DNA of 64,000 nt from the human T2T-CHM13v2.0 reference genome, Homo sapiens. Position 1 is the stretch's first letter. The number at the start of each line of letters is the position of its first letter. The position numbers and the translations under genes are program-made. Positions 14,266 through 30,272 of the stretch are shown here, piece by piece. The DNA lies in NCBI RefSeq assembly GCF_009914755.1, contig NC_060926.1, one strand, 5' to 3'. The notes under the pieces are model-generated. The model ran no database searches. It saw only the letters and a list, made by a program, of their open reading frames with translations, and was not told the origin of the DNA.

Positions 14266-16868
14266 GGCCAGGTGTGGTGGCTCACCCATGTAATCCCAAC
14301 ACATTGGGAGGCCAAGCCAAGAGGATAGCTTGAGCCCAGGAGTTTAAAACCAGCCTGGACAACTGTATTAGTCCATTTACACACTGCTGATAAAGACATA
14401 CCTGAGACTGGAAAGTAAAAGAGGTTTAATGGACTTACAGTTCCACGTGGCTTGGGAGGCATCACAATCATGGCAGAAAGCAAGGGGGGCAAGTTATAGC
14501 TTACATGGATGGTGGCAGGCAAAGAGAGCACTTGTGCAGAGAAACTCCTGTTTTTAAAACCACCAGATCTCATGAGACCCATTCACTATCATAAGAATAG
14601 CATGGGAAAGACCTGCCCCCTTGATTCAATCATCTCCTGCCGAGTCCTTCTGACAACATGTGGAAATTATGAGAGCTACAAGACAAGATTTGAGTGGGAA
14701 CACAGAGCCAAACCATATCATTCTTCCCCTGGTCCCTCCCAAATCTCATATCTTCACATTTCAAAACCAATCATGCCTTCTGAACAGTCCCCCAAAGTCT
14801 CAATTCATTTCATCATTAACTCAAAAGTCCATAGTGCAAAGTCTCATCCAAGACAAGGCAAGTAAGTCCCTTCCACCTATGAGCCTGTAAAATCAAAAGC
14901 AAGTTAGTTAATTCCTAGATACAATAGGGGTACAGGCATTGGGTAAATACAGCCAATCTAAATGGGAGAAATTGGCCAAAACAAAGGGGCTACAGGCCCC
15001 ATGCAAGTCTGAAACCCAGTGGGACAGTCAAATCTTAAAGCTCCAAAATGATCTCCTTTGACTCCATGTCTCACATCCAGGTCATGCTGATGCAAGAGGC
15101 AGGTTCCCATAGTCTTGGGCAGCCCCACCCCTGTGGCTTTGCAGGGTACAGCCTCCTTCCCAGCTACCTTCACTGGCGGTGTTGAGTGTCTGAGGCTTTT
15201 CCAGGCGCATGGTACAAGCTGTCAGTGGATCTACCATTCTGGAGTCTGGAGGATGATGGCCCTATTCTCACAGCTTTACTAGGTGGTGCCCCAGTAGGGA
15301 CTCTGTGTGGGGGCTCCCACCCAACATTTCCCTTCTGCACTGCCCTAGCAGAGGTTCCACATGAGGACCCCACCCCTACAGCAAACTTCTGCCTGGGCAT
15401 CCGGGCATTTCCATACGTCTTCTGAAATCTAGGTGGAGGTTCCCAAACCTCAATTCTTGAATTTTATGCACTCACAGGCCCAACACCACGTGGAAGCTGC
15501 CAAGTCTTGAGGCTTGCATCCTCTGAAGCCACAGTCTGAGCTCTACATTGGCCCCTTTCAGCCGTGGCTGGAGCAGCTGGGATGCAGGGCACAAAGTCCC
15601 TAGACTGTACACAGCATGGGGACCCTGGACCCAGCCCATGAAACCACTCTTTCCTCCTAGGCCTCCAGACCTGTGATGAGAGGGACTGCCATGAAGACCT
15701 CTCACGTGCCCTGGAGACATTTTCCCCATTGTCTTGGGGATTAACATTTGGCTCCAAATTACTTATGCAAATTTCTGAGGCTGGCTTGGATTTCTCCTCA
15801 GAAAATGGGATTTTTCTTTTCTATTGCCTTGTCAGGCTGCAAGTTTTCTGAACTTTTATGCTCTGCTTCCCTTATAAAACTGAATGCCCTCAACAGCATC
15901 CAAGTCACCTCTTGAATGCTTTGCTGTTTAGACATTTCTTCTGCCAGATACCCTAAATCATCTATTTCAAGTTCAAAGTTCCACAAATCTTTAGGGCAGG
16001 GGCAAAATGCTGCCAGTCTCTCTGCTAAAACATAACAAGAGTCACCTTTGCTCCGGTTCCCAACAAGTTCCTCATTTCCATCTGAGACCACCTCAGCCTG
16101 GACATTATGGTTCGTATCACTGTCAGCATTTTTGTCAAAGCCATTCAACAAATCTCCAGGAAGTTCCAAACTTTCCCACGTTTTCTTGTCTTCTTCTGAG
16201 CCCTCCAAACTGTTCCAACCTCTGCCTGTTACTCAGTTCCAAAGTCGCTTCCATAGTTTTGGGTATCTTTTCAGTAACGCCCCACTCTACTTGTACCAAT
16301 TTACTTTATTAGTCTGTTTTCATACTGCTGATAAAGACATACCCAAGATTGGGAAGAAGTAGTTTAATGGACTTACAGTTCTACATGGCTGGGGAGGCCT
16401 CACAATCATGGAGGAAGGCAAGATGTAGCAAGTCATGTCTTACATGGATGGCAGCAGGCAAAGAGACAGCTTCTGCAGATAAACTCCTGTTTATAAAACC
16501 CTCAGGTCTCATGAGACCCATTCACTATCATAGAACAGCACAGGAAAGACCCAGCCCCATGATTCAATCATCTCCCACCAGGTCCCTCCCACAACACATG
16601 GGAATTATGGAACCTACAAGATGAGATTTGGGTGGGGACACAGAGCCAAACCATATCAACAACATAGCAAGAACCTGTCTCTACAAAAATAATTTTTTAG
16701 AAATTAGACAGGTGTGGTAGTGCATACCTGTAGTCCCTGCTACTCAGAAGGCTAAAGTGAGAGGATTGCTTGAACCCAGGAGGTTCAAGGCTGCAGTGAG
16801 CTATGCTGGAGCCACTGTACGCCAGCCTGGGTAACAAAGAGGGACTGTGTCTCCAAAAATAAAAAATA
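14266..16868 (+). mobile_element. AluJ split by the THE1 insertion (14266-14363 and 16664-16868)
   Basis: Alu sequence resumes after the LTR; Alu TSD agagctcagaga on both sides. Confidence 0.9.
14364..16658 (-). mobile_element. Full-length THE1 MaLR: LTR 14364-14720, internal region, LTR 16305-16658
   Basis: Both LTRs run t(g/t)tattagtc..ccaaaccatatca; decayed MaLR internal ORF; 5-bp TSD acaac at 14359 and 16659. Confidence 0.95.
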
Positions 16869-16884
16869 ACAGAGCTCAGAGAAA

Positions 16885-17805
16885 TGGCTGATTTCAGGAT
16901 TAGGGCAGAGGAAATACAAGATTAACCTGGAACATCTTACTAGGCTAGAAAGTAAGAAGTGCCCCCCAAAATTGTGCAAGCATCAAGTCAAAATGACTCA
17001 GAAGTCAGCTTGAAGGGTACACCACTAGATAAATCTGGAACAATTTGAGCATCAAAGTAAATAATAGTAATAAATTGATTAAAGCATAAATCTATGAGTT
17101 CAGTCATATAAATAAATAAATAAATTGATACTTAGTGGAGAATGAGATATTTACATAGCCTCAAAGTATGTCCTGCAAAATATTTATGAATAAAAAAAGG
17201 GAAATGAGGTTAATTTATAATAGAGGAGCCTAGAAGATACCATTTTAATCAGATAATCAAAGTGAACATCTCAGTAATAAAACAAATTGAAAATGTAGAC
17301 CCTCTGATAGAATGCAATGAGAACACAGCATTGCTTCGGTGAGATTCTTGCCAAAGAAGCATAACCTTATCATAAGATAATATCAGACAAAGCTAAACTG
17401 GGGAACATTATAAAAATTAATGACCTATAATCTTCTAAAGTGTCAGGGTCCTGAAAGTCAAGGAAAGACAGGAATGGTTCCAGATTGAAGACAACTAAAG
17501 AGATGAACTAAATGCAGTACTTGATTTTGGACTGGATTATTTTATTATAAATTACATTGGAACATTTGACAAAACTTGAACATGGTCTAAGGATTAGATC
17601 ATAGCAATGTGCTGATGTTAACTCCCTGATCTTGAGTAACTGTGTTCTGGTTAAATAGGAGAATATCCTTGTCTATAGGAAAATATACACTAAAGTATAG
17701 GGGTAATACAGCATCAGGTCAGCAACTTACTCTCAAACTGTTCAAGTAACAAAAGTTCTTTGTCCTCTTTCTGTAAGTTTTCTGTATGTTTAACATGGCT
17801 TCAAA
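16885..17805 (+). mobile_element. Old L1MC-type 3' UTR
   Basis: ataatcaaagtgaacatc..cctctgatagaatgcaatgagaacacagc.. and gcaacttactctcaaactgttca. Confidence 0.65.
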
Positions 17806-17845
17806 ATGCAAATTGTTCTTCACAAAAATGCAAAACTAAACGTAC

Positions 17846-17973
17846 ATTAAGTTACAGCAGACTCTCACAGATATTTGTCACATAATGCCATTTTCCTTGG
17901 TCACAGGTTTAGCTACAGAACGATATCTTGCCAGTCTTTCACATGAGAAAAACTAGTTATCGAAGACAATTGT
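17846..17973 (-). pseudogene. Pseudo-exon, 128 nt: TIVFDN*FFSCERLARYRSVAKPVTKENGIM*QISVRVCCNL (frame uncertain)
   Basis: Acceptor gtttttatAG, donor AAT|GTACGT. Phase 0 in and phase 2 out fit the flanking blocks. Confidence 0.55.
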
Positions 17974-18080
17974 CTATAAAAACTTTAATAATACCATATT
18001 TATTTTTTTGTTGGGAAGGGGGACAATTTGCAAGACAGAACAAGGATATTCATTTATTAAACAAATTTTATTAAACATAC

Positions 18081-18642
18081 ATTAAGTTTTGTGGTAGGTA
18101 CAAGTTTTCTTTCTGTGGTGGTCACTGTGATGCACTGCTCAGATTCCCCCTTCAGGACTCAAGGTTTTATTCCCCAAGCAGCAAGGAATGCTGTGGACAA
18201 GGCAGCCCTCAGCTGTCAGTTCCTTTCAGGAATTTCCTCAGTTGAAGAGAGATTCCTTGCCTAAGGTGACAGTCCCTTTCTGGGGTGGTCTACATCCAAT
18301 CACTGGTCAATGCAGAGGTATAAAGGCCTAGCCCTGTTGCCCCAATTCAAGGCATCTTTGATAGGTCATCCCTGCTTCAGAACATCCCAGAGGGCTAAGG
18401 GTTTCATTGAGAATCCATCAATCCATCACGGCTCCACTTCTCCCTCTGCCAGTCCCTTCCGTTTCCTTGCCTTTCCTGTCCTAGGTGATGATCCTTGGAG
18501 CATGCCTAATGAACCTCCTGCCTGCTCATCTCTGACTCACAGTCTGCCTCTCCGAAAGCCTACCTGTGCCATCTCGGTAACTGGTTTCTCTCTGGAGTTA
18601 CAAAGGACTATTATTTTTCAACTTTCTGACTATTAAATACGG
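18081..18642 (-). pseudogene. Pseudo-exon split by LTR16A: (A)VFNSQKVEK**SFVTPERNQLPR [LTR] RKLVPTTKLN
   Basis: Acceptor aattatAG at 18644-18643, donor AAT|GTATGT at 18080. Phase 1 in and phase 0 out match neighbours. Confidence 0.55.
18114..18571 (+). mobile_element. LTR16A-like ERVL solo LTR
   Basis: TG..CA ends; cagattcccccttcagga, CCAAT and TATAAA, ..agtctgcctc..acctgtgcca. Confidence 0.8.
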
Positions 18643-18955
18643 CTATAATTTATAACATTAAAATTTTATGAGCTTCTCTTTGCCTGCTCCACTTTCCCTC
18701 TCTTGATCAAACAGCATGAAGTGGAAAGATATAGACGCTGAGAATGGGAACAGAAAAAGCCTAAGAGGAAGCCAGAGTCTGTCTTGGGAAGGCAAGTTAA
18801 GGTGTAGGACAAGTTTGTCTGGTCCACCACCCTTTTCTTTGCTATTTTCTCCCTCTTTCAACCCCTGCCTCCTAGTGATCCCTGTGTTCCATGCATTCAT
18901 ATTGCATGGCTCCTCCCTTCTCAGAAGAGTAACTCATCCCTACTGGAGCTGACTT

Positions 18956-19348
18956 GCCTTACTTAGTCAATTCCAGCTTCTATAACAGACTACAATAAAC
19001 TGGGCAGCTTCAACAATAGATATTTATTCCTCACAGTTCTGGAGCCTGGGAAGTCCAAGATAAAAGTGCTGGCAGATCTAGTGTCTAGAGAGGACACACT
19101 TCCTGGTTTGCAGATGGCCATCTTCTCCACGTATCCTCCTATGGCAGGGAGCAGAGAAAGAAGAGGAAGGGGATGTGGGGAAACAGAAAAAGAGAGAACA
19201 AGCTCTTCTCCTTAAAAAGGCACTAATCCTGCTCCACCCTCAGGACCTAATTACTTCCCAAAGACCCCACCTCCAAATACTATCACTTTGGGGGTTAGGA
19301 TTTCACCATATGAGTTTTTCAGGGGACATAAACATTTAGTTCATAACA
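18956..19348 (-). mobile_element. MLT1A-like MaLR LTR
   Basis: tttattcctcacagttctggagcctgggaagtccaagat..acataaacatttagttcataaca. Confidence 0.85.
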
Positions 19349-19437
19349 GGATGTAATGTATCATTCTCCTTAAAGAGTTTGCAGTAGAAAGAAACTTTTT
19401 TTTTCTTTTTTTAAGGCTTATTCCATTCAAAACATAC

Positions 19438-19616
19438 CCAGAGATTGGTGGAAGGAAGATAATGAATCTGTTGGCATTAGTAAGATAGATGGTTTTGGTA
19501 CTCTCCTGAATCATCCATGTAGGCAGTTGTCTTCTTCATTTACACATCAATTGAAGTTCTCTTATAATAAGTCCTTGGGGGAAATATCTGGGAAAAGCTA
19601 GTATTTGGAACTATTC
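19438..19616 (-). pseudogene. Pseudo-exon, 179 nt: (G)IVPNTSFSQIFPPRTYYKRTSIDV/NEEDNCLHG*FRRVPKPSILLMPTDSLSSFHQSL
   Basis: Acceptor tttttcaaatAG, donor TGG|GTATGT. Removing a 2-bp GT slip gives a 177-nt phase 1-1 exon that joins the next block in frame. Confidence 0.65.
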
Positions 19617-20166
19617 CTATTTGAAAAATTGCTATAAATCCTTTACCCCAGGCATTAGCAGATTAAATCATTTTTTGCAGAAACAGACTGAGATTTAATT
19701 CTTATGACACAAATTAGCTCTGTTTTGTTTGTTAACATCTATTTTTATCAGACCATAGGCAATAGAAATCAACGTTTAAGTTAAGAAAACTGTATCTGTA
19801 GGGATGTCAGATTTAAAATTCTGCCTAATTAGGTAGTCCTGGATATTACTAATTTTTTTTTGCTTTTTCAAGTAATATAAGTGTGATATGCTATCAGTAT
19901 TATGAAACAAACACCCTTTTTCCATTTTTTCCTTCTACTGAGAAAAATATTTTTTAAATGTTACAGCTTAATGCTTCAGGATCTTGTCTAAACAGAAACA
20001 TTAAGCATGTTGATTTGTGTTTTCCTAATTATCTCCTTTCTATTTTTAAAGTTGGCCCTTTATCAGGCATTTTTCAGTCTTTCCACACGTGCCCTTGTTT
20101 TTTGACAAGATGTCAAAGTGATAGCAAATGGTTCCACCATGGTAAGGAGCTTCCTGTGTGCTGTTG

Positions 20167-20254
20167 ATGAGCTGAGATGGCGCACTGCACTGTACCCTGA
20201 ATAACAGAGCAAGACTCCATCTCAAAACAACAAAAAACAAACAAACAAACAAAC
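20167..20254 (+). mobile_element. Alu 3' fragment with (CAAA)n tail
   Basis: tgagctgagatggcgcactgcac..agagcaagactccatctc. Confidence 0.85.
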
Positions 20255-20719
20255 AGAATGCAATTCATTCAGATAAAGAGACTTAGAAACCACAGATCAA
20301 TTTTGGCCTGTACAGGTGACTAAATTGCCTTTCAGAAAGGTTGTACCAGATGATATTCCCATAGCAGTGTATAAGAGTAGCTGTTTTCATGTCTTCGCTA
20401 ACACTGAATTTTATAATTATTCACAATCTTTGGTGAATGACAAAAAAACCCACAATATTTCATTTGTCCCAATTAAAAATTATTTATTGCATTTCCTCAT
20501 TATGTAACTCAGTAATGTTCATTACAGAAAAATAGCAAATCAAAGATTTTAAAAAGTAACCATAACACAAAGGCCAACAGATAATCAGCATTAACACATT
20601 CTTTGTATACATAGACATTCTCTGTTATGACTTTTACTTTTGATGTCATGCTTACATTTGATATATTTTTACCTAGATTTTCTTCTAATGATTATAAAAA
20701 TGTATTTAATTTAATCTAA

Positions 20720-21482
20720 AAATTTTTAATTGAAAATCATACTAACATAAAATTCACCATCTTAACTATTTTTAAGTGTACAGTTCAGTAGTGTTAAGGA
20801 TATTCACACGGTTGTGCAACCAATCTCCACAACCTCTGTCTTACAAAAATGAAACTCTATGTCCATTAAACAAAAATTCCCTATTTCCCTCTCACTCCAG
20901 CCCTCAACCACTACCCTTCTACTTTCTGTTTCTATGAACCTGACTACTCTATATATTTCATATGTAAGTGATATAAGTGGAATCATACAGTGTCTGTCTG
21001 TTTGTGATTGGCTTATTTCACATAGCATAATGTCCTCAAGGTTCATTCTTATTCTAGCATGTGTCATAATGTCCTCAAGGTTCATTCTTATTCTAGCATG
21101 TGTCACAATTCCTTTGTCTTTAATGCTGAATAATATTCCATTGCATGTATATACTACATTTTCTTTATCCATTCATTGATGGACATGGACACTTGGGTTG
21201 TTTCTCCACTTTGGCTATCATGAAATAATCCTGCTGATAACATGAGTGTACAACTATTTCTTCAAGACTTTGCTTGCAATTCTTTTGGATATATACCCAG
21301 AAGTAGAATTGGTGGATCATATGGTAGTTCTATTTTTAATTTTTTGAGGAATCACCATACTGGTTTCCGCAGTAGCTGCACCATTTTGCATTCCTACCAA
21401 CAGGGTTTCAATTTCTCTACATCCTCATCAACACTGTTTTTAATATAGTAGCCATCCATCCTGATGGGTGTGAAGTGATAAT
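20720..21482 (-). mobile_element. L1MA/MB 3' end with an internal 39-bp tandem duplication
   Basis: Antisense L1 3' UTR and ORF2 end; duplicate at 21026-21064 and 21065-21103. Confidence 0.88.
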
Positions 21483-21489
21483 TTAAATG

Positions 21490-21940
21490 TCTTCTCCCTC
21501 TCTTTCTCTCTCTATGCTTGAATCTGCTTCTCTCTGATTTTTAGCTTTATGATTTTGGGTCTGCCATCTGTGTAAGACTGGAAACATGGCCTGTGATGGA
21601 TCCAAACTTAGCCTCATAGCTTAGCAACCAAACAGAAAGGAAGTGCTTCCTCCTGGCCCCAGTTTGGAAAATCTCTGGGAAGGAGACTGATTGGCATAGA
21701 CTAACTCATACATGCATCCCTTGGACCAATCAACAATGGCCAAGTGATTAGCCCTTCTTGAGTCATATGCATATCTCTTCAGGGGCAGGGAGTTATATAA
21801 CTAACAGGATAAAACCTCCAATTCAGAGCAAGGGGAGGATGAACATTTTCCCAAATGTGGGTGGGATAAGTAGGAAAAATATAGCCATTTGGAGAAGCAT
21901 TGTGAACTGGGTAGTCAACGCAATGTATGTCTACTATACA
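21490..21940 (-). mobile_element. Old MLT1-type LTR
   Basis: ggaaggagactgattggc..ccttggaccaatca..gtctactataca. Confidence 0.55.
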
Positions 21941-22271
21941 TTTGAAACCTTGACGGTTAGAGTTTGCTTTCTTCATTTTCTCATTGTCTGATTTTCCTCC
22001 TCTTTTCCCAAGAGATGTGAAAGAGAAGCAGAGTACTCCAATGAATGATTTCCTTTATCCCAAGCAAGGCCTGGTATTTGATGAGAGATGTATTCTAAGA
22101 GAGTTTTTAACTAGAAATTGTGTATTCACCTGCAGCATTTCAAAATTCAGATGTTTGTACTCTTGTTCAAGTATTTTTAAATTCTATTTTCTCTGAGAAG
22201 GTCAAATATTACATACTATCTGTTTCTGTGAACAGAAGAGTACATTTTCTGATTAACAGAGTTTTTTGCAA
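21941..22271 (-). pseudogene. Pseudo-exon 5' part (..AKNSVNQKMYSSVHRNR.. / QIPGLAWDKGNHSLEYSASLSHLLGKEEENQTMRK..), cut by an MLT1-type LTR; may resume at about 20167-19915
   Basis: Strong acceptor tcttattttcctAG; coding-like runs with several stops and frameshifts. Confidence 0.4.
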
Positions 22272-22530
22272 CTAGGAAAATAAGACTGTTTTTAAGTATC
22301 ATGATTTAAAGCCCTCGCAGTAGGAAACCAAATTATATAGTTTATAGTGAAATGAAATGGAGATTCATCCATTGTTATTGCCATATAAAAGTTATATTTA
22401 AATGTAATACCTTAATATATTTTACTTCCTTAAAAAAGAAACAAAATTTAATTTTATGACAAGGAAATTTCTATTATGTTTTTCACTATTAACATAATTT
22501 TAAAAATAATTTGATGTTAACACTTTTCTA

Positions 22531-23067
<537 letters not shown>

Positions 23068-23140
23068 TTAGACTTTCTGAATGTCCCCATTCTGTTCTGG
23101 ATCATTTTGATTGCAGTTTTATTAAGACTTGTACCTCCTT

Positions 23141-23445
23141 GGCCAGATGCAGTGGCTCACACTTAAAAGCCCAGCACTTTGGGAGGCCAAGGCAGGAGGC
23201 AGGAGGACTGCCTGAGGCCAGGAGCTCAAGATCAGCCTGGGCAGCATAGCAAGGCCTTATCTGTATAAAATAATTTAAAAATTAACTGGGCATGATGGCA
23301 AGTGCCTGTAGCCACAGCTACCTGGGAGGCTGAGGCAGAAGAATCGCTTGAGCCCAGGGGTTTAAGGATGCAGTGAGCCATGATCGACTGCAACACTGCT
23401 CTCCAGGCTGTGTGACACAGTGACACCCTCTCTCAAAAAAAAAAA
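23141..23445 (+). mobile_element. AluJ
   Basis: Diverged dimer; TSD ttgtacctc. Confidence 0.9.
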
Positions 23446-23448
23446 TTG

Positions 23449-23612
23449 TGGGAGGGGGGAGGGATAGCATTGGGAGATATACCTAATGCTAGATGACGAG
23501 TTAGTGGGTGCAGTGCACCAGCATGGCACGTGTATACATATGTAACTAACCTGCACATTGTGCACATGTACCCTAAAACTTAGTATAATAATAATAAATA
23601 AATGAAAAAAAG
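23449..23612 (+). mobile_element. Young 5'-truncated L1 (L1PA2-like) in the Alu tail
   Basis: gcattgggagatatacctaatgctagatgacGAGttagtggg; TSD aaaaaaaaattgt. Confidence 0.9.
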
Positions 23613-23882
23613 GAAAAAAAAATTGTACCTCTTCTAAATATTAAGCAAAATTAGCATAATTAGTATGAGATTTTAGATGAACAATTTATTAAACTATAAG
23701 ACAGCACAGTGATATAATAATGCCTTCCTAGATAAAGGAAAAGTAACTAATTAAATAAACAATCAGTATAGTAGTAGATATTTATTATTTAATTATAGAT
23801 TCAATGTAATGGTGATTGAAATTATAAATTTCATAACTGTTATATAATTTACTTAAGATACTATGTTAATCACAGATCAAAC

Positions 23883-24029
23883 CTCTGGTGAAACCTGATG
23901 GAAATGTCTGAAATATTATGTAACAAAAGAGCTATTCATAATAGGGTGAGCCGTGAGCATCTTTTGTTGTTGAAAATATGTTCCTTATGTTGCTTGTTTA
24001 TACTTCTATATTTTAAAAACAAATTTTGG
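23883..24029 (-). pseudogene. Pseudo-exon, 147 nt: QNLFLKYRSINKQHKEHIFNNKRCSRLTLL*IALLLHNISDISIRFHQ
   Basis: Acceptor ttttattctagtAG, donor GAG|GTTTGA. Length divisible by 3, one TGA stop. Confidence 0.55.
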
Positions 24030-24544
24030 CTACTAGAATAAAATACTTCAACAGCTACCACAAAGCAAATAATACACAAATAAAGGATATTGAGAAATGA
24101 CAGATTTGCATTTTTCTTTTTGAAGTTATCAATTCCTCAAGGAACTGTGACTTTTGCGTCTTATTCATCTCTGTATGATCAGGACCTAACACATTGCCCG
24201 GATTATGAAGGTCCTTGGTAAAGGTGTTGAATGAAAGGCAGAAAGAAAAGTACTAAAAAGAAAGGAAGGAAATGGGGAGGAAGGGAAGAAAGTGAAGTGG
24301 GGAAAGAGGGAAGGAGGGAGAGAAGGAAGAAGACTCTAAACTCCTTATGAGTTTCACTTTTGTTGTGAGTCATGTGTGACTGAATAGAGAAGCGCCTCAG
24401 AGTTCCCAAACCCCAGGGGCGAGGGGTGAGGGGAAAGGGGAATTCTAGAGGGCCAGGAGGCCAGAAGGCACCATAATTCTGCTTCTGGGAACTTCTATGT
24501 GCTGAGTCTCCACTGAAGACAACAGTGTAAGTAACTAGTGACAG

Positions 24545-24685
24545 AAAAATAGGAGGAATCTAAAATCTGTCCACAACTTGGTCTTTCTTCAAAATGATTC
24601 CTTCAGAAATGAATTCCCATCAATCTCCAAAGCCAGAATAGTAAGAGAATGGAGGTCATCATTCCCAACTCCTCCCCCTTCTTCA
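24545..24685 (-). pseudogene. Pseudo-exon segment, subdomains IX-XI-like: EEGGGVGNDDLHSLTILALEIDGNSFLKESF/EERPSCGQILDSSYF
   Basis: One extra T separates the two frames. LALEIDGN resembles recalled NRBP MAVLEIQGN; ERPSCGQIL..YF fits the kinase RPxxxxIL motif. Exon ends uncertain. Confidence 0.65.
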
Positions 24686-24714
24686 CTTGTAAATCTAATT
24701 ATTTTATGTTATGT

Positions 24715-25070
24715 TGTTTTATTTTACTTGTATTATGGTACGAACACTTCACACAAAATCTGTTCTCTTAACAAAATTTTAAGTGCATGATAATTCATCT
24801 TGCATAACTGAAATTTTGTACTCATTGAACAGACACTCCCTCCCTCCCTCAGCCACTGGCAACCACTATTCTCTTCTCTGCTTCTACAAGTCAACTATTT
24901 TAGGTGCCTCACATAAAAGAAATTATGCAGCATTTGCCTTTTTGTGACTTGCTTATTTCACTTAGTGTAATATCTTCCAGGCTATCTATGTTGTCATAAA
25001 TGACAGGATTTCCTTCTTTTTTAAGGCTAGTCTTCCATTGTATGTTTTATACCACATTTTCTTTATCTAC
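24715..25070 (-). mobile_element. L1MA/MB 3' end
   Basis: ctggcaaccactattct..gcttatttcacttag..accacattttctttatc. Confidence 0.8.
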
Positions 25071-25081
25071 CTTTCTTTCTT

Positions 25082-25720
25082 GCTGTGTTCTCAAATGGTT
25101 GAAGGGGCAAGGAGTTTCTCTCAGGCTGCTTTTATAAGGGCACTGTATTAGTCCATTCCCCATTCTCACACTGCTATATAGAAATACTTGAAAATGGGTA
25201 ATTTATAAAGAAAAGAGATTTAATTGTCTCACGGTTCTGCAGGCTGTACAGGAAGCACAGTGGCATCAGCTTCTGGGGAGGCCTCAGGGAACTTGCAGTC
25301 ATGGTGAAGGCAAAGTGGGAGCCACAATTCACATGGCCAGTGCAAGAGGAAGAGAGAGAGAAGGGGGAGACGCTACACATTTTCAAACAACCAGATCTCA
25401 CTATAACTCACCTACTCACTATCACAAGAACAGTACTGAGAAAATGGTGCGAAACCATTAATAAGAAACTACCCCCATGATCCGATGACCTCCCACAAGG
25501 CCCCACCTCCAACATTGGGGATTACAGTTAAACATGAGATTTGGTGGGGCCACAGATCCAAACCATACATATCAGGCACTTGTCCCATTCTTGAGCGCTC
25601 CACCTGCATGACCTAATAACCTCTCAAAGATCCCACCCCCCAATGCCATCAATCACCTGATGTTAGGATTTTAACATACAGTATGAATTTTGGGAGGACC
25701 CAAACATTCAGACCATAGCA
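25082..25720 (-). mobile_element. MLT1A-like LTR fragment containing an MST solo LTR (25144-25574)
   Basis: MST tgtattagtcc..cagatccaaaccatacatatca with TSD ggcac at 25139 and 25575. Confidence 0.88.
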
Positions 25721-25932
25721 AAGTATAACTGAAAATTTTAAATGTCTGTATCAGATTCTTAATGATAAATAAAGAATTTTGGTTCATTTATAACCTCTTA
25801 GCACTAATGTTAATACTAAAATACATTGAATTCTACATTCCATTACATCATTATTATGATAACACTACTATGCACATCCTGAATCTGTATACGTGATGGG
25901 AAATATCCTTGCTAAAATGCATACAATGCCTT

Positions 25933-26228
25933 CTTTTGTTTTGTTTTTGTTTTGATATGGAGTCTCGCTCTGTCGCCTAGGCTGGAGTGCAATGGCACGA
26001 TCTCAGCTCGCTGCAACCTCCGCCTCCCAGGTTCAAGAGGTTCTTCTGCCTCTAATGCCCTGCTAGGATTACAGGTGCACACCACCACGCCTGGCTAATT
26101 TTTGTATTTTTAGTAGAGACCGGGTTTCACCATGTTTGTCAGGCTGGTCTCAAACTCCTGACCTCGTGATCCGCCTGCCTCAGCCTCTCAAAGTGCTGGG
26201 ATTATAGGCGTGAGCCACCGCGCCCGGC
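25933..26228 (-). mobile_element. AluS
   Basis: Dimer; TSD gccttctt. Confidence 0.93.
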
Positions 26229-26541
26229 TACGCCTTCTTATTAGTTACCTGACTCATATCATACCCATCCAAATAGATTAAAAAATTTCATAGCACTGTG
26301 TTAGAAAGGACAGGAAAAACCGACACTCTCATCCTTCTAAATATAAACTGGTACAAGCACTTCAAAAGACAATTTAGCAATATTTATCAAAATGTTAAAA
26401 GCATACACCCATGGACTGTTAGCATTTCCACTTCTAGGAATTTAATCTGTAATATACTTGCATATCTATGAAATATGTATATGTTAGAATACACAATATA
26501 TTAGCCAACAATTATAAACAAACTAGCCATTGATAGAGAAC

Positions 26542-26939
26542 TGTGTTGATTAATTTTAAGTCACTGGGCCATGGTGCCCAGATATTTGGTTAAACATTAT
26601 TCTGATGTTTTGGTGAGGGTGTTTTTGGATGAGATTTAATATTTAAATTAGTGAACTCTGAGTAAAGAAGACTGTGCTCCATATCATGGGTGGGCCTCAT
26701 CTAATCAACTGAAGACCTGAATAGAACAAAGACTGACCTTCCCCAAGCAAGAAGGAATTCTGCCAGCAGTTGGCCTTCAGATTTGAACTGCAACATTGGC
26801 TCTTCCCTGGGTCTCCAACCTACTACCCCACCCTGCAGATGTGGGAATTGCCAGCATCTGTAATTCTCTTAAAAGAAAATTTTATATGTATACACATGTC
26901 CTCTTTGTTTTGTTTCTCTGGAGAACCCTGACTAATACA
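26542..26939 (+). mobile_element. MLT2 (ERVL) solo LTR inside an old L1ME fragment
   Basis: gtgcccagatatttggttaaacattattctg..ggagaaccctgactaataca. Confidence 0.85.
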
Positions 26940-27319
26940 AGAAGTGATTAAATAAGTTACGGTGCATCGTTCAATGGAATACTATGCAAACGTTAAAAAG
27001 TAACGTGGTATTTCTACGGGCATTAATATGGAATATTTTCCCAGAAGTGTTCTTCAATTAAGAAAACCTAGTATAGAACATGTGTACAGTGATACTGTTT
27101 GTATAATTTCTACCCATTCATTAGCTTCTTCGCATTGAACAGCTCTGGAAAGGAAACAAAAAAAAACTGGTAATAGTGTATCCTCCAGGGAGAAGAGCTG
27201 GACACCTGGCAGCAGCAAAGAAAAAGAGCTATCTTTTTTACTTTATCCTTTTTTATCTACCATAAAGTGCTTGCATCAACTATTCAAAAAAACCTGATTG
27301 TTTAAAAATACTGTATTCT

Positions 27320-27648
<329 letters not shown>

Positions 27649-28066
27649 TCATTGTCTGTTCCTTATTTTGTGCCTTTTAAAAGGGATGAGTGAGAAAAAA
27701 ATAGTATTTTAGATCATGTTAAAAATAAAATTTTTGAGTGTGAATTATATTAGTATGTTATAGCGTGCAATAATTTTTACATTCTGCATTTGAAACAGTA
27801 TTATAATCATTTTAATGTATCAAACTAGTATGTGTATTAACTACAATATAAATGTATATTACAAATGCATGTTTTCTATGAAATTACATATTTGTAATTT
27901 AAAGGTTGAGGCATTAAAATACAAACAACAGTTACATTATCTACTTTTACAAGCTCCATGTTTATTTCATCTTCCTGAATTATTACCATAAATTTATTTT
28001 AGCTGTTTTATCTTTAAAAATGTTTAATAGAACTTTAAAAAATTATCATCCTAAACCCAGTAATAC

Positions 28067-28260
28067 CTGTTGGAGAAAAGTATCAGGATGAAATTCATCA
28101 AAACATGTTGCCAAATGCTTCCCACACACAAATGATACCTGTCATCTCTCCACTGCCATATTACTATAATTCAGTCAAGTTGGTGGTGGATCATAAAAAT
28201 TCCATTTTCTATCTAACGTAAACAGATATTGAATTTTAATCCAGTGAAGAACAATTCATT
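28067..28260 (-). pseudogene. Pseudo-exon, 194 nt, subdomain VI-VII-like: MNCSS..MEFL/YDPPP..LNYSN../GIICV/GSIWQHV/FDEFHPDTFLQQ
   Basis: Acceptor tttcttcttcAG, donor CAG|GTATTA. With frameshifts it resembles recalled NRBP YLHSCDPP..GLIKIGSV(W/F)HRIF..PDT. Confidence 0.65.
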
Positions 28261-28520
28261 CTGAAGAAGAAATTCTCAATTATCTTTCTGACACCCAAAG
28301 TAACTTGTTTTTAAAAATGCGTAGCCAAAGTACACTTCTAAAGGCAATTGTGAAACTTCTGTATTTGTAAGTCATGAAAATATTGTCAATGCTATATAAT
28401 TATTGCTATTATTAAAGTCATCTTGGCTAAAATGTCAGAAGACCACTTAATTAGACTTTTTAAAAAAGTATTGTTTTAAACCAACCAAGGAGAATAAGAG
28501 TAATTGAAATATATGAGCAC

Positions 28521-28576
28521 CTGTTAATGAGCAAGGTATTTGGGATCCAATAATCTGCAATTACCAAATGATGTGT
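28521..28576 (-). pseudogene. Pseudo-exon, 56 nt, subdomain V-like: THHLVIADYWIPNTLLIN(R)
   Basis: Acceptor tttttaatAG, donor CAG|GTGCTC. Open frame, phase 0 in and phase 2 out, matching both neighbours. Confidence 0.65.
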
Positions 28577-28672
28577 CTATTAAAAAGTTATTGGCCTCAC
28601 ACATTCATTACAGTATACAAGCATTCAGCATTCTTTATGTAACAATGTGTGTCACAAGCCTTTAATGCTCAC

Positions 28673-28735
28673 GTATGCCCAGTTAAATTAATGTACCCTT
28701 CCTAGATGGCTCATCTGGACAATTTTATGTGCCAA
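28673..28735 (-). pseudogene. Pseudo-exon (3' part), kinase subdomain III-IV-like: LAHKIVQMSHLGRVH*FNWAY
   Basis: Donor TAC|GTGAGC, phase 0. Resembles recalled NRBP1 LIQLEHLNIVKFHKYWAD. 5' boundary unresolved; upstream I*NEVIVSQ near 28815-28840 resembles VVWNEVQFSE. Confidence 0.6.
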
Positions 28736-29960
28736 AAGAGAAAGTAAACAACAGGGGAGGAATGGCAGGAAGATGGAACGGGTAACGCAGCCTGTTACGA
28801 TTTATCAGGATTTGAGACACAATTACTTCATTTTAAATATTGCTGGAGGAAATAAAAATCCTAGCACTTTTACTATTCTTGCTAGCTTCTCTTTAAATAT
28901 CTTTGTTTAGTAATCACTATACTATTTCTTTTGCCCCATTTTATGAGAGATTAGCAGTAGCTCCTAATCTTAACCAAAATGCCTAATCCTTCTTTGGTTG
29001 AGTGGACATGTGTTATTTCCCATCCAGTATCCATTTCTCCTTTTCCCTGTAAACAGCCCTTAAATTTAGGGGGGTCAGGGGAGTGGGGGACAGTCCATTC
29101 CAAGCTGTTTAAATGTGATTTGCCTTAATGCTAACTGCGGTGTGAGCCCAACTGGCCCACACTAATCAGTTTGACCCCATCCCATTGAAACACTCTGATT
29201 GGTTTAGGGAGGACAATGTATATGTTCACTTGTTATATAATCATTTTGCAGGTAACAACTTTATCGTATTATCTTATTGTTTGTAATAGTCAATTTTCTT
29301 GGATTTTCCAAATATATAATCATATAATCTTCAAATTATGATAATTATACCCCATCTTACTTTTTTTGTCTCTAATTGAATTTAGCTAGTACCTCTAGGA
29401 TAGTCTTAAATTATCATGTGTTAAACTTCTAGAATATCCTTGACTTGTCCTGACTTTGATGAGGATGCTTCTAGTATTTACCCATTCAGCATAACACTAG
29501 CTTTCGGGTTTAGGTAGCTATGTCTTACCATGTCAAGGACGTTTCCTTTTATTCCTATTATTTTGTTGGGAGGTTAATTTTCTTAAACCAATAGTAACTG
29601 TTGAAAGTTATCAAATACCTTTTTGATAGAAATAGAATATAGAATATATTCTATTAGAATATATTCTAATATAGATATAGAATATAGATAGAATATAGAA
29701 ACTATATTATGATTTTTTCTCCTTATATCCATTATAACAATGAATCACTCTATTTTAAATTATCCTTGCATTTTAAAAATAAACCTTACTTACTTGGACT
29801 TATAATTTTCCTATGCTACTAAATACTACTGCAATTTTTTGTTTGTTTGTTTGTTTTGTTTTGTTTGTTTGCTTTTTTAGAAACGTTGCATCCATAGTCA
29901 TAAATGAGATTGCTTTGTGTGGCTTTTTAAAAGCAAATATTGGGTTATTAAAATAATTTA

Positions 29961-30272
29961 GGCCAGGCGTGGTGGCTCATACCTGTACTCTCAGCACTTT
30001 GAGAGGCCAAGGCAAGAGGACCTCTTGAGGCCAGAGCTTGAGACCAGCCTGGCCAATACAGTGAGGACCCTGTCACTACAAAAAATTTTAAGAAGTTAGC
30101 CACACACAGTGGCACCCACCTGATATGCCAGCTACTCCGGAGGAGAGGCTGAGGTGGGAGGATTTCTTGAGCCCGGGAGTTCAATGTTACAGCGAGCTAT
30201 GATCACCCCACTCCACTCCAACCTATATGACAGATTAGCACCAGTCTCAGGAAGAAAGAGAGAGAGACAGAG
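29961..30272 (+). mobile_element. AluJ
   Basis: Diverged dimer; TSD aataattta. Confidence 0.9.

What the first reader, a model, noticed from the sequence alone, without database searches (positions are those of the whole stretch)
18081..18642. An LTR16A insertion splits a fossil exon and could date the gene loss
Seen: an acceptor-bearing half (18642-18572) and a donor-bearing half (18113-18081) flank a complete TG..CA solo LTR, and their phases match the neighbouring exons. An MLT1-type LTR similarly cuts the block starting at 22271. Established: LTR16 and MLT1 families were active early in placental evolution. Inference: the gene was dead, or was killed, near the base of eutherians, long before the Alus arrived.
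Basis: partly seen in the sequence, partly recalled or inferred. Interest (0 to 1): 0.7.

Follow-up and report, generated by a model that had tools for sequence, protein, structure and literature searches.

The report
Ancient solo LTR, unproven fossil exon
This is an old, ordinary leftover end-piece (solo LTR) of a retrovirus-like element in human DNA between two genes, and the "broken exon" around it is likely a chance look-alike, so on present evidence it dates no gene loss.

Summary
The LTR is real. It spans 18114-18571 (458 bp, TG...CA) and has at least 39 relatives at 67-83% identity. Promoter and poly(A) remnants put it on the + strand. It is about 0.20 substitutions/site old, which fits an early-placental insertion. 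The LTR16A label was not testable.

The fossil exon is not supported. The acceptor at 18642 is weak (38% of AGs score as well). The same anatomy appears at 331 of 1970 random cut points. Phase-matched chains this good arise in 8 of 40 controls. The phase match needs no target-site duplication, or one of 3 or 6 bp. No protein relative was found. These tests have little power on very old decay, so a fossil gene is not excluded.

No MLT1 cuts the 22271 block: a strong donor closes it at 22130. Even a real split exon would give only a minimum age.

New nearby: 18010-17846 is a decayed copy of part of an ERCC4/XPF exon plus the start of its intron.

The parts
18114..18571 (+).
   Evidence: 39 other genomic matches at 67-83%; ends agree with sister copies; no protein family in its frames
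18319..18324 (+). TATA-like box of the LTR
   Evidence: TATAAA here and at the aligned place in 5 of 9 sister copies
18508..18513 (+). Decayed poly(A)-signal-like hexamer of the LTR
   Evidence: AATGAA here; AATAAA in 1 and AGTAAA in 4 of 9 sister copies, 3 differ, 1 unaligned
18572..18642 (-).
   Evidence: Acceptor in top 38% only; single copy; 1, 3 and 2 stops in 23 codons by frame
18081..18113 (-).
   Evidence: Donor in top 7%; no genomic match over this part
17846..18010 (-). Decayed copy of the 3' part of the ERCC4/XPF exon coding residues 130-194, plus the start of the next intron
   Evidence: 73%, E 4e-14 to one chr16 site; that exon is XPF 130-194; 31 mismatches in 163 sites, 6 indels, spread evenly over codon positions
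22130..22271 (-). Exon-like block with good AG and strong GT; 3 stops in every frame; not cut by an LTR
   Evidence: single copy; no Pfam family
18960..19345 (.). Multi-copy LTR-like repeat (MLT1A-like by recall) lying between candidate blocks, not inside one
   Evidence: Relatives in L020 (E 6e-31) and at window 25716-25149

Best explanation
A 458-bp solo LTR sits on the + strand at 18114-18571, likely left when an ERVL-type provirus inserted into non-coding DNA in an early placental ancestor and later looped out by recombination between its two LTRs; the AG and GT on either side are likely chance splice look-alikes. Shown: the element, its ends, copy number, orientation and divergence. Inferred: the provirus-then-recombination history (established mechanism for solo LTRs) and the absence of an exon. 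The neighbourhood looks like old neutral DNA that collected insertions, including a short ERCC4 fragment about 70 bp away of similar age.
For: LTR. Flank anatomy at 331 of 1970 random cut points. Exon-like scores over 11 repeat-poor segments: minus strand 11 hits, sum 101.9; plus strand 8, 85.6; 30 Markov controls 9.7+-1.8, 88.8+-18.1. Best phase-consistent chain 48.8, plus strand 42.8, and 8 of 40 controls as high; that chain does not use acceptor 18642. My seven-piece chain has 15 stops in 272 codons (5.5%) against 7.2% background, and a second frame has 14; simulated decay without indels gives 2.0%. No homologue, PDB, or 41 stretches scanned with Pfam (three weak hits, all under cut-off).
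Against: The tests are weak for old fossils: real exons decayed in silico score 12.0 vs 9.1 antisense at 0.18 substitutions/site but only 10.0 vs 9.1 at 0.25, and the eight window candidates average 9.6 vs 9.8. Several hand-picked blocks score above random local DNA on codon use (for example 23096-22993 +6.9 bits, 19573-19438 +3.7, against a best-of-three background of -7+-5). Two have strong donors (after 22130 and 13213). The candidates are single-copy, as real exons would be. Protein searches used short, possibly wrong-frame pieces, I ran no positive control showing that they can find a vertebrate orthologue, and no other vertebrate genome was available.
Confidence: 0.68

Rival explanations
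1. One reading: the flanks are one exon (about 99 nt) of a minus-strand multi-exon gene, head to head with OSBPL6, that was dead when the LTR landed or was killed by it, before or near the placental radiation.
For: AG and GT present. With 5 nt removed, one frame runs from the 19573 block through the split block (1 stop) into the open-looking frame of 13347-13213 (read). Intermediate codon scores. Single-copy candidates. Genes lost before eutherians number in the hundreds per reference species (PMC5577775, passages).
Against: No signal above controls; no homologue; weakest acceptor of those scored; OSBPL6, RBM45 and PDE11A are absent from the supplements of two gene-loss surveys, though these list many genes by ID only.
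Confidence: 0.17
2. The LTR's flanks are the decayed upstream part of the ERCC4 duplicate (end of the intron before the copied exon), so the LTR split a duplicated intron, not an exon.
For: One local alignment with the LTR removed runs from 18631 to 17803 against the chr16 site; anchored extension was reached by 4 of 120 local-DNA and 8 of 120 shuffled controls.
Against: The extension scores the same with the LTR left in (21 vs 22), 55 of 120 controls reach it when the left flank is swapped, and 12 of 150 reach the right-flank score. The preceding ERCC4 exon does not match the flanks (869-911 of 1000 nulls score as high).
Confidence: 0.1
3. A fossil gene exists here, but the LTR lies in one of its introns and does not date the loss.
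For: The better-looking blocks (22271-22130, 13347-13213, 37015-36923) are not the split one.
Against: Same lack of homologue and of signal over controls.
Confidence: 0.05

Closest known systems
LTR16A (LTR of ERV3-16A3, ERV3/HERVL group in Repbase; PMC5753468 passages)
   Same: About 460 bp, TG...CA, internal TATA and poly(A) remnants, many diverged copies, no internal coding part; listed with 6,966 human copies and eutherian distribution (PMC4419796 Table 1)
   Different: Subfamily not testable without a repeat library; no target-site duplication can be read; nothing sets this copy apart
Unitary pseudogenes / genes with lost coding potential in eutherians (Hezroni et al., PMC5577775; passages and supplement searches)
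   Same: Would be a syntenic remnant between conserved genes, interrupted by repeats
   Different: Those are defined by an intact orthologue in an outgroup; none is identified here
Unprocessed gene-fragment duplicates (here of ERCC4/XPF)
   Same: Exon plus intron sequence copied to another chromosome and decaying neutrally
   Different: Only about 165-200 bp; the neighbouring ERCC4 exons have no match in the window or the 10 kb left of it; not in the supplied gene table

Membership tests
Solo LTR (ERVL/ERV3 type) | TG...CA termini shared with other copies | tested here: met
Solo LTR (ERVL/ERV3 type) | Dispersed multi-copy family | tested here: met
   39 other matches, a lower bound
Solo LTR (ERVL/ERV3 type) | TATA box, then poly(A) signal on one strand | tested here: met
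   + strand 18319 and 18508, shared with sister copies
Solo LTR (ERVL/ERV3 type) | Target-site duplication (5 bp for ERVL, recalled) | tested here: inconclusive
   1 of 5 match here; 3 of 5 in three of nine sister copies, so decay is usual
LTR16A subfamily | Best match to the LTR16A library model | not testable with these tools
   No Dfam or Repbase library; the label agrees with my recall only
Unitary pseudogene exon | Homology to an intact gene in another species | tested here: inconclusive
   No hit; low sensitivity, no vertebrate genomes held
Unitary pseudogene exon | Splice, codon and phase signal above background | tested here: not met
   low power beyond about 0.25 substitutions/site
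Unitary pseudogene exon | Halves contiguous and coding in outgroups; shared disablements in placentals | not testable with these tools
   Only the human genome is held
MLT1 (MaLR) LTR interrupting the 22271 block | Multi-copy LTR inside the block, with the block resuming after it | tested here: not met
   Block closes at 22130; 21470-22500 gave no other copy
Caspase-8/10-like (DED + C14), death-domain or RGS gene | PF00656, PF01335, PF00531 or PF00615 match in the window | tested here: not met
ERCC4-derived unprocessed fragment | Similarity runs across the exon end into the intron, with no codon-position bias | tested here: met

The most novel reading that the evidence does not exclude
An unannotated multi-exon gene, head to head with OSBPL6, was lost in the placental stem, and this LTR sits inside one of its exons as a shared marker that the gene was already dispensable before the placental orders split.
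Probability: 0.17. Interest if true: 0.55.

Novelty: new member of a known kind. Interest (0 to 1): 0.17.

Why it matters
As it stands it matters little: one old LTR among thousands, plus a small unlisted ERCC4 fragment that could confuse short-sequence mapping or serve as a neutral marker. If an outgroup gene were found, it would add an unknown gene to those lost at the origin of placentals, with an insertion that bounds the loss from below and is easy to score across orders.

Tried and rejected
Caspase-10-like fossil: prompted by the teleost CASP10 neighbourhood of agps, pde11a, cyt c, osbpl6 and prkra (PMC13067673 passages). No family hit in the window, local tblastn and profiles empty (60, 61), frameshift-aware scores 27-32 against shuffle means of 29-31 (68). 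Death domain (50) and RGS domain (73, 76): no match. The three hits of the full HMMER search (25) are internally repetitive proteins whose weak repeats add up (27-29). Antibody and WT1 PDB hits are weak (best E 0.018 and 0.2). LTR flanks as the preceding ERCC4 exon: an eye-catching peptide likeness, but below null (98). No Rfam family in 12000-30000 (104). One search was run in the wrong frame and says nothing. The Atlas gave no result, so feature-based look-alikes are untested; the block 13347-13213 was compared as protein only with Pfam and local profiles. Literature: RBM45+OSBPL6+pseudogene 0 papers (8), RBM45+OSBPL6 5 listings, none on a lost gene by title or abstract start (30), RBM45+synteny 0 (53), RBM45+platypus 2 (105; passages of 10.1101/2024.02.29.582754 hold no synteny, 107), ERCC4+pseudogene 20 of 60 listed, none on this fragment by title or abstract start (100). 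Supplements of bioRxiv papers could not be seen, and the PMC5577775 list of lost genes gives IDs without positions.

Full report
Setting. The window is human chr2 between RBM45 and OSBPL6; the supplied gene table lists nothing near 18081-18642.

The LTR is real. On the - strand it reads TG at 18571 and CA at 18114, 458 bp. A genome search scored 40 of 41 candidates and returned 39 other places at 67-83% identity. Similarity to the nine copies fetched stays within 18567-18115, and their ends line up with these ends. A TATA-like box at 18319 is shared by 5 of 9 copies. A poly(A)-like hexamer at 18508 reads AATAAA in 1 and AGTAAA in 4 of 9. The element is therefore sense on +, opposite to the proposed gene. 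Pairwise K2P distances to the nine copies are 0.33-0.52, mean 0.40, or about 0.20 per copy. This is rough: these were the best matches and may mix subfamilies. By my recall of human neutral branch lengths it fits an insertion around the placental radiation. PMC4419796 Table 1 lists LTR16A with 6,966 copies and a minimal distribution of 'Eutherians' (passages); PMC5753468 files it under ERV3 (passages). The subfamily name agrees with my recall but could not be tested. No target-site duplication survives (1 of 5 bases; 3 of 4; 3 of 6), and three sister copies keep only 3 of 5.

The split exon is not more than chance. With simple splice matrices of my own, the acceptor at 18642 scores about zero and 38% of 4444 minus-strand AGs do as well; the donor after 18081 is in the top 7%. 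At 398 of 1970 random cut points in repeat-poor DNA an AG and GT this good lie in the same arrangement, and at 331 one frame is as open. A seven-piece chain does run in one frame, but with 15 stops in 272 codons (5.5%); the other frames have 14 and 20, and local background is 442 of 6143 (7.2%). Simulated decay of real coding DNA without indels leaves 2.0%. The chain also needs the halves to total 104 nt (or 101 or 98), which ignores the 5-bp duplication expected of an ERVL insertion (recalled); removing it gives 99 nt and other phases. Over 11 repeat-poor segments the minus strand gives 11 exon-like hits (sum 101.9), the plus strand 8 (85.6) and 30 Markov controls 9.7+-1.8 (88.8+-18.1). The best phase-consistent chain scores 48.8, against 42.8 on the plus strand; 8 of 40 controls reach it, and it does not use acceptor 18642.

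Against my own reading. The power check shows that these tests separate sense from antisense at 0.18 substitutions/site (12.0 vs 9.1) but barely at 0.25 (10.0 vs 9.1); the eight candidates average 9.6 vs 9.8. Some hand-picked blocks have codon scores between background and decayed exons, two have strong donors, and those tested are single-copy. With 5 nt removed, a frame with one stop links the split block to its neighbours. An old fossil gene is therefore unproven, not excluded.

No relative was found. A full HMMER search with 28270-27980 gave three hits, all repetitive proteins. Word-based searches gave 0, 156 and 6 candidates, none at E<=10. PDB searches gave only weak hits. Pfam scans of 41 translated stretches gave three hits, all under cut-off. 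Caspase/DED, death-domain and RGS ideas were tested and failed. These searches used short pieces of uncertain frame and had no positive control, so they are weak evidence.

The MLT1 claim. The block from 22271 has a good acceptor (top 5.5%) and ends at a strong donor after 22130 (top 0.7%). The piece that looks MLT1-like to me (about 21830-21490, recall) lies some 300 bp further on, and no search found a relative of it. A clear multi-copy LTR-like repeat at 18960-19345 lies between candidate blocks. Neither cuts an exon.

What does lie next to the LTR. Window 18010-17872 matches one other site, G000:C16:13963871-13964019, at 73%, E 4e-14. That site is the exon coding XPF (ERCC4) residues 130-194. 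The match runs past the exon end into the intron, including a 16-base exact run. In 163 aligned sites there are 31 mismatches and 6 indels; by codon position 7/38, 8/40 and 9/36, intron 7/49; K2P 0.23. Nothing else in 11.5 kb of the ERCC4 region matches apart from common repeats. I infer a short unprocessed duplicate, neutral from the start and roughly as old as the LTR; a DNA-level copy and a retrocopy of an unspliced RNA cannot be told apart. Whether it extends upstream across the LTR is open: the extension is marginal (4 of 120 and 8 of 120 controls reach it) and no better with the LTR removed, and the preceding exon does not match.

Mechanism and dating. Most likely a provirus inserted into non-coding DNA and was reduced to one LTR by recombination (inferred from the established mechanism). 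Even if the flanks were one exon, the insertion would show only that the exon was dispensable by then. The gene could have died much earlier, and a 99-nt exon could be skipped in frame. A family-level label of 'Eutherians' does not separate the stem from early branches.

Verdict. LTR confirmed; fossil exon unsupported (0.17); MLT1 cut not confirmed; a small ERCC4 fragment is the one addition. Searches that found no printed description of a lost gene here.

Noticed in passing
The intron part is less diverged (7/49) than the coding part (24/114), which is unexplained.
   Followed up: yes
window 18080-18024 and 17815-17784: Two 10-bp perfect inverted-repeat pairs bracket the ERCC4 fragment. Found post hoc; the outer right arm overlaps what looks like an L1 end, so it may be chance.
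   Followed up: partly
window 580-430 and L011 7500-7350: Two diverged copies of an exon-looking stretch about 3 kb apart, seen by eye: probably an old repeat or local duplicate that could be mistaken for fossil exons.
   Followed up: no
window 31080-30690 (- strand): Reads like a very old L1 ORF2 remnant (recall); its A-rich, open-looking frames mimic exons.
   Followed up: no
window 22180-21780 (- strand): One frame runs about 130 codons with a single stop through the donor after 22130; no Pfam or caspase match.
   Followed up: partly
window 28260-28139 and 28066-27988 (- strand): Two exon-like blocks separated by a 72-nt GT...AG gap; no homologue found.
   Followed up: partly
window 13347-13213 (- strand): Among the best exon-like blocks by splice plus codon score; single copy; no Pfam family.
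   Followed up: partly
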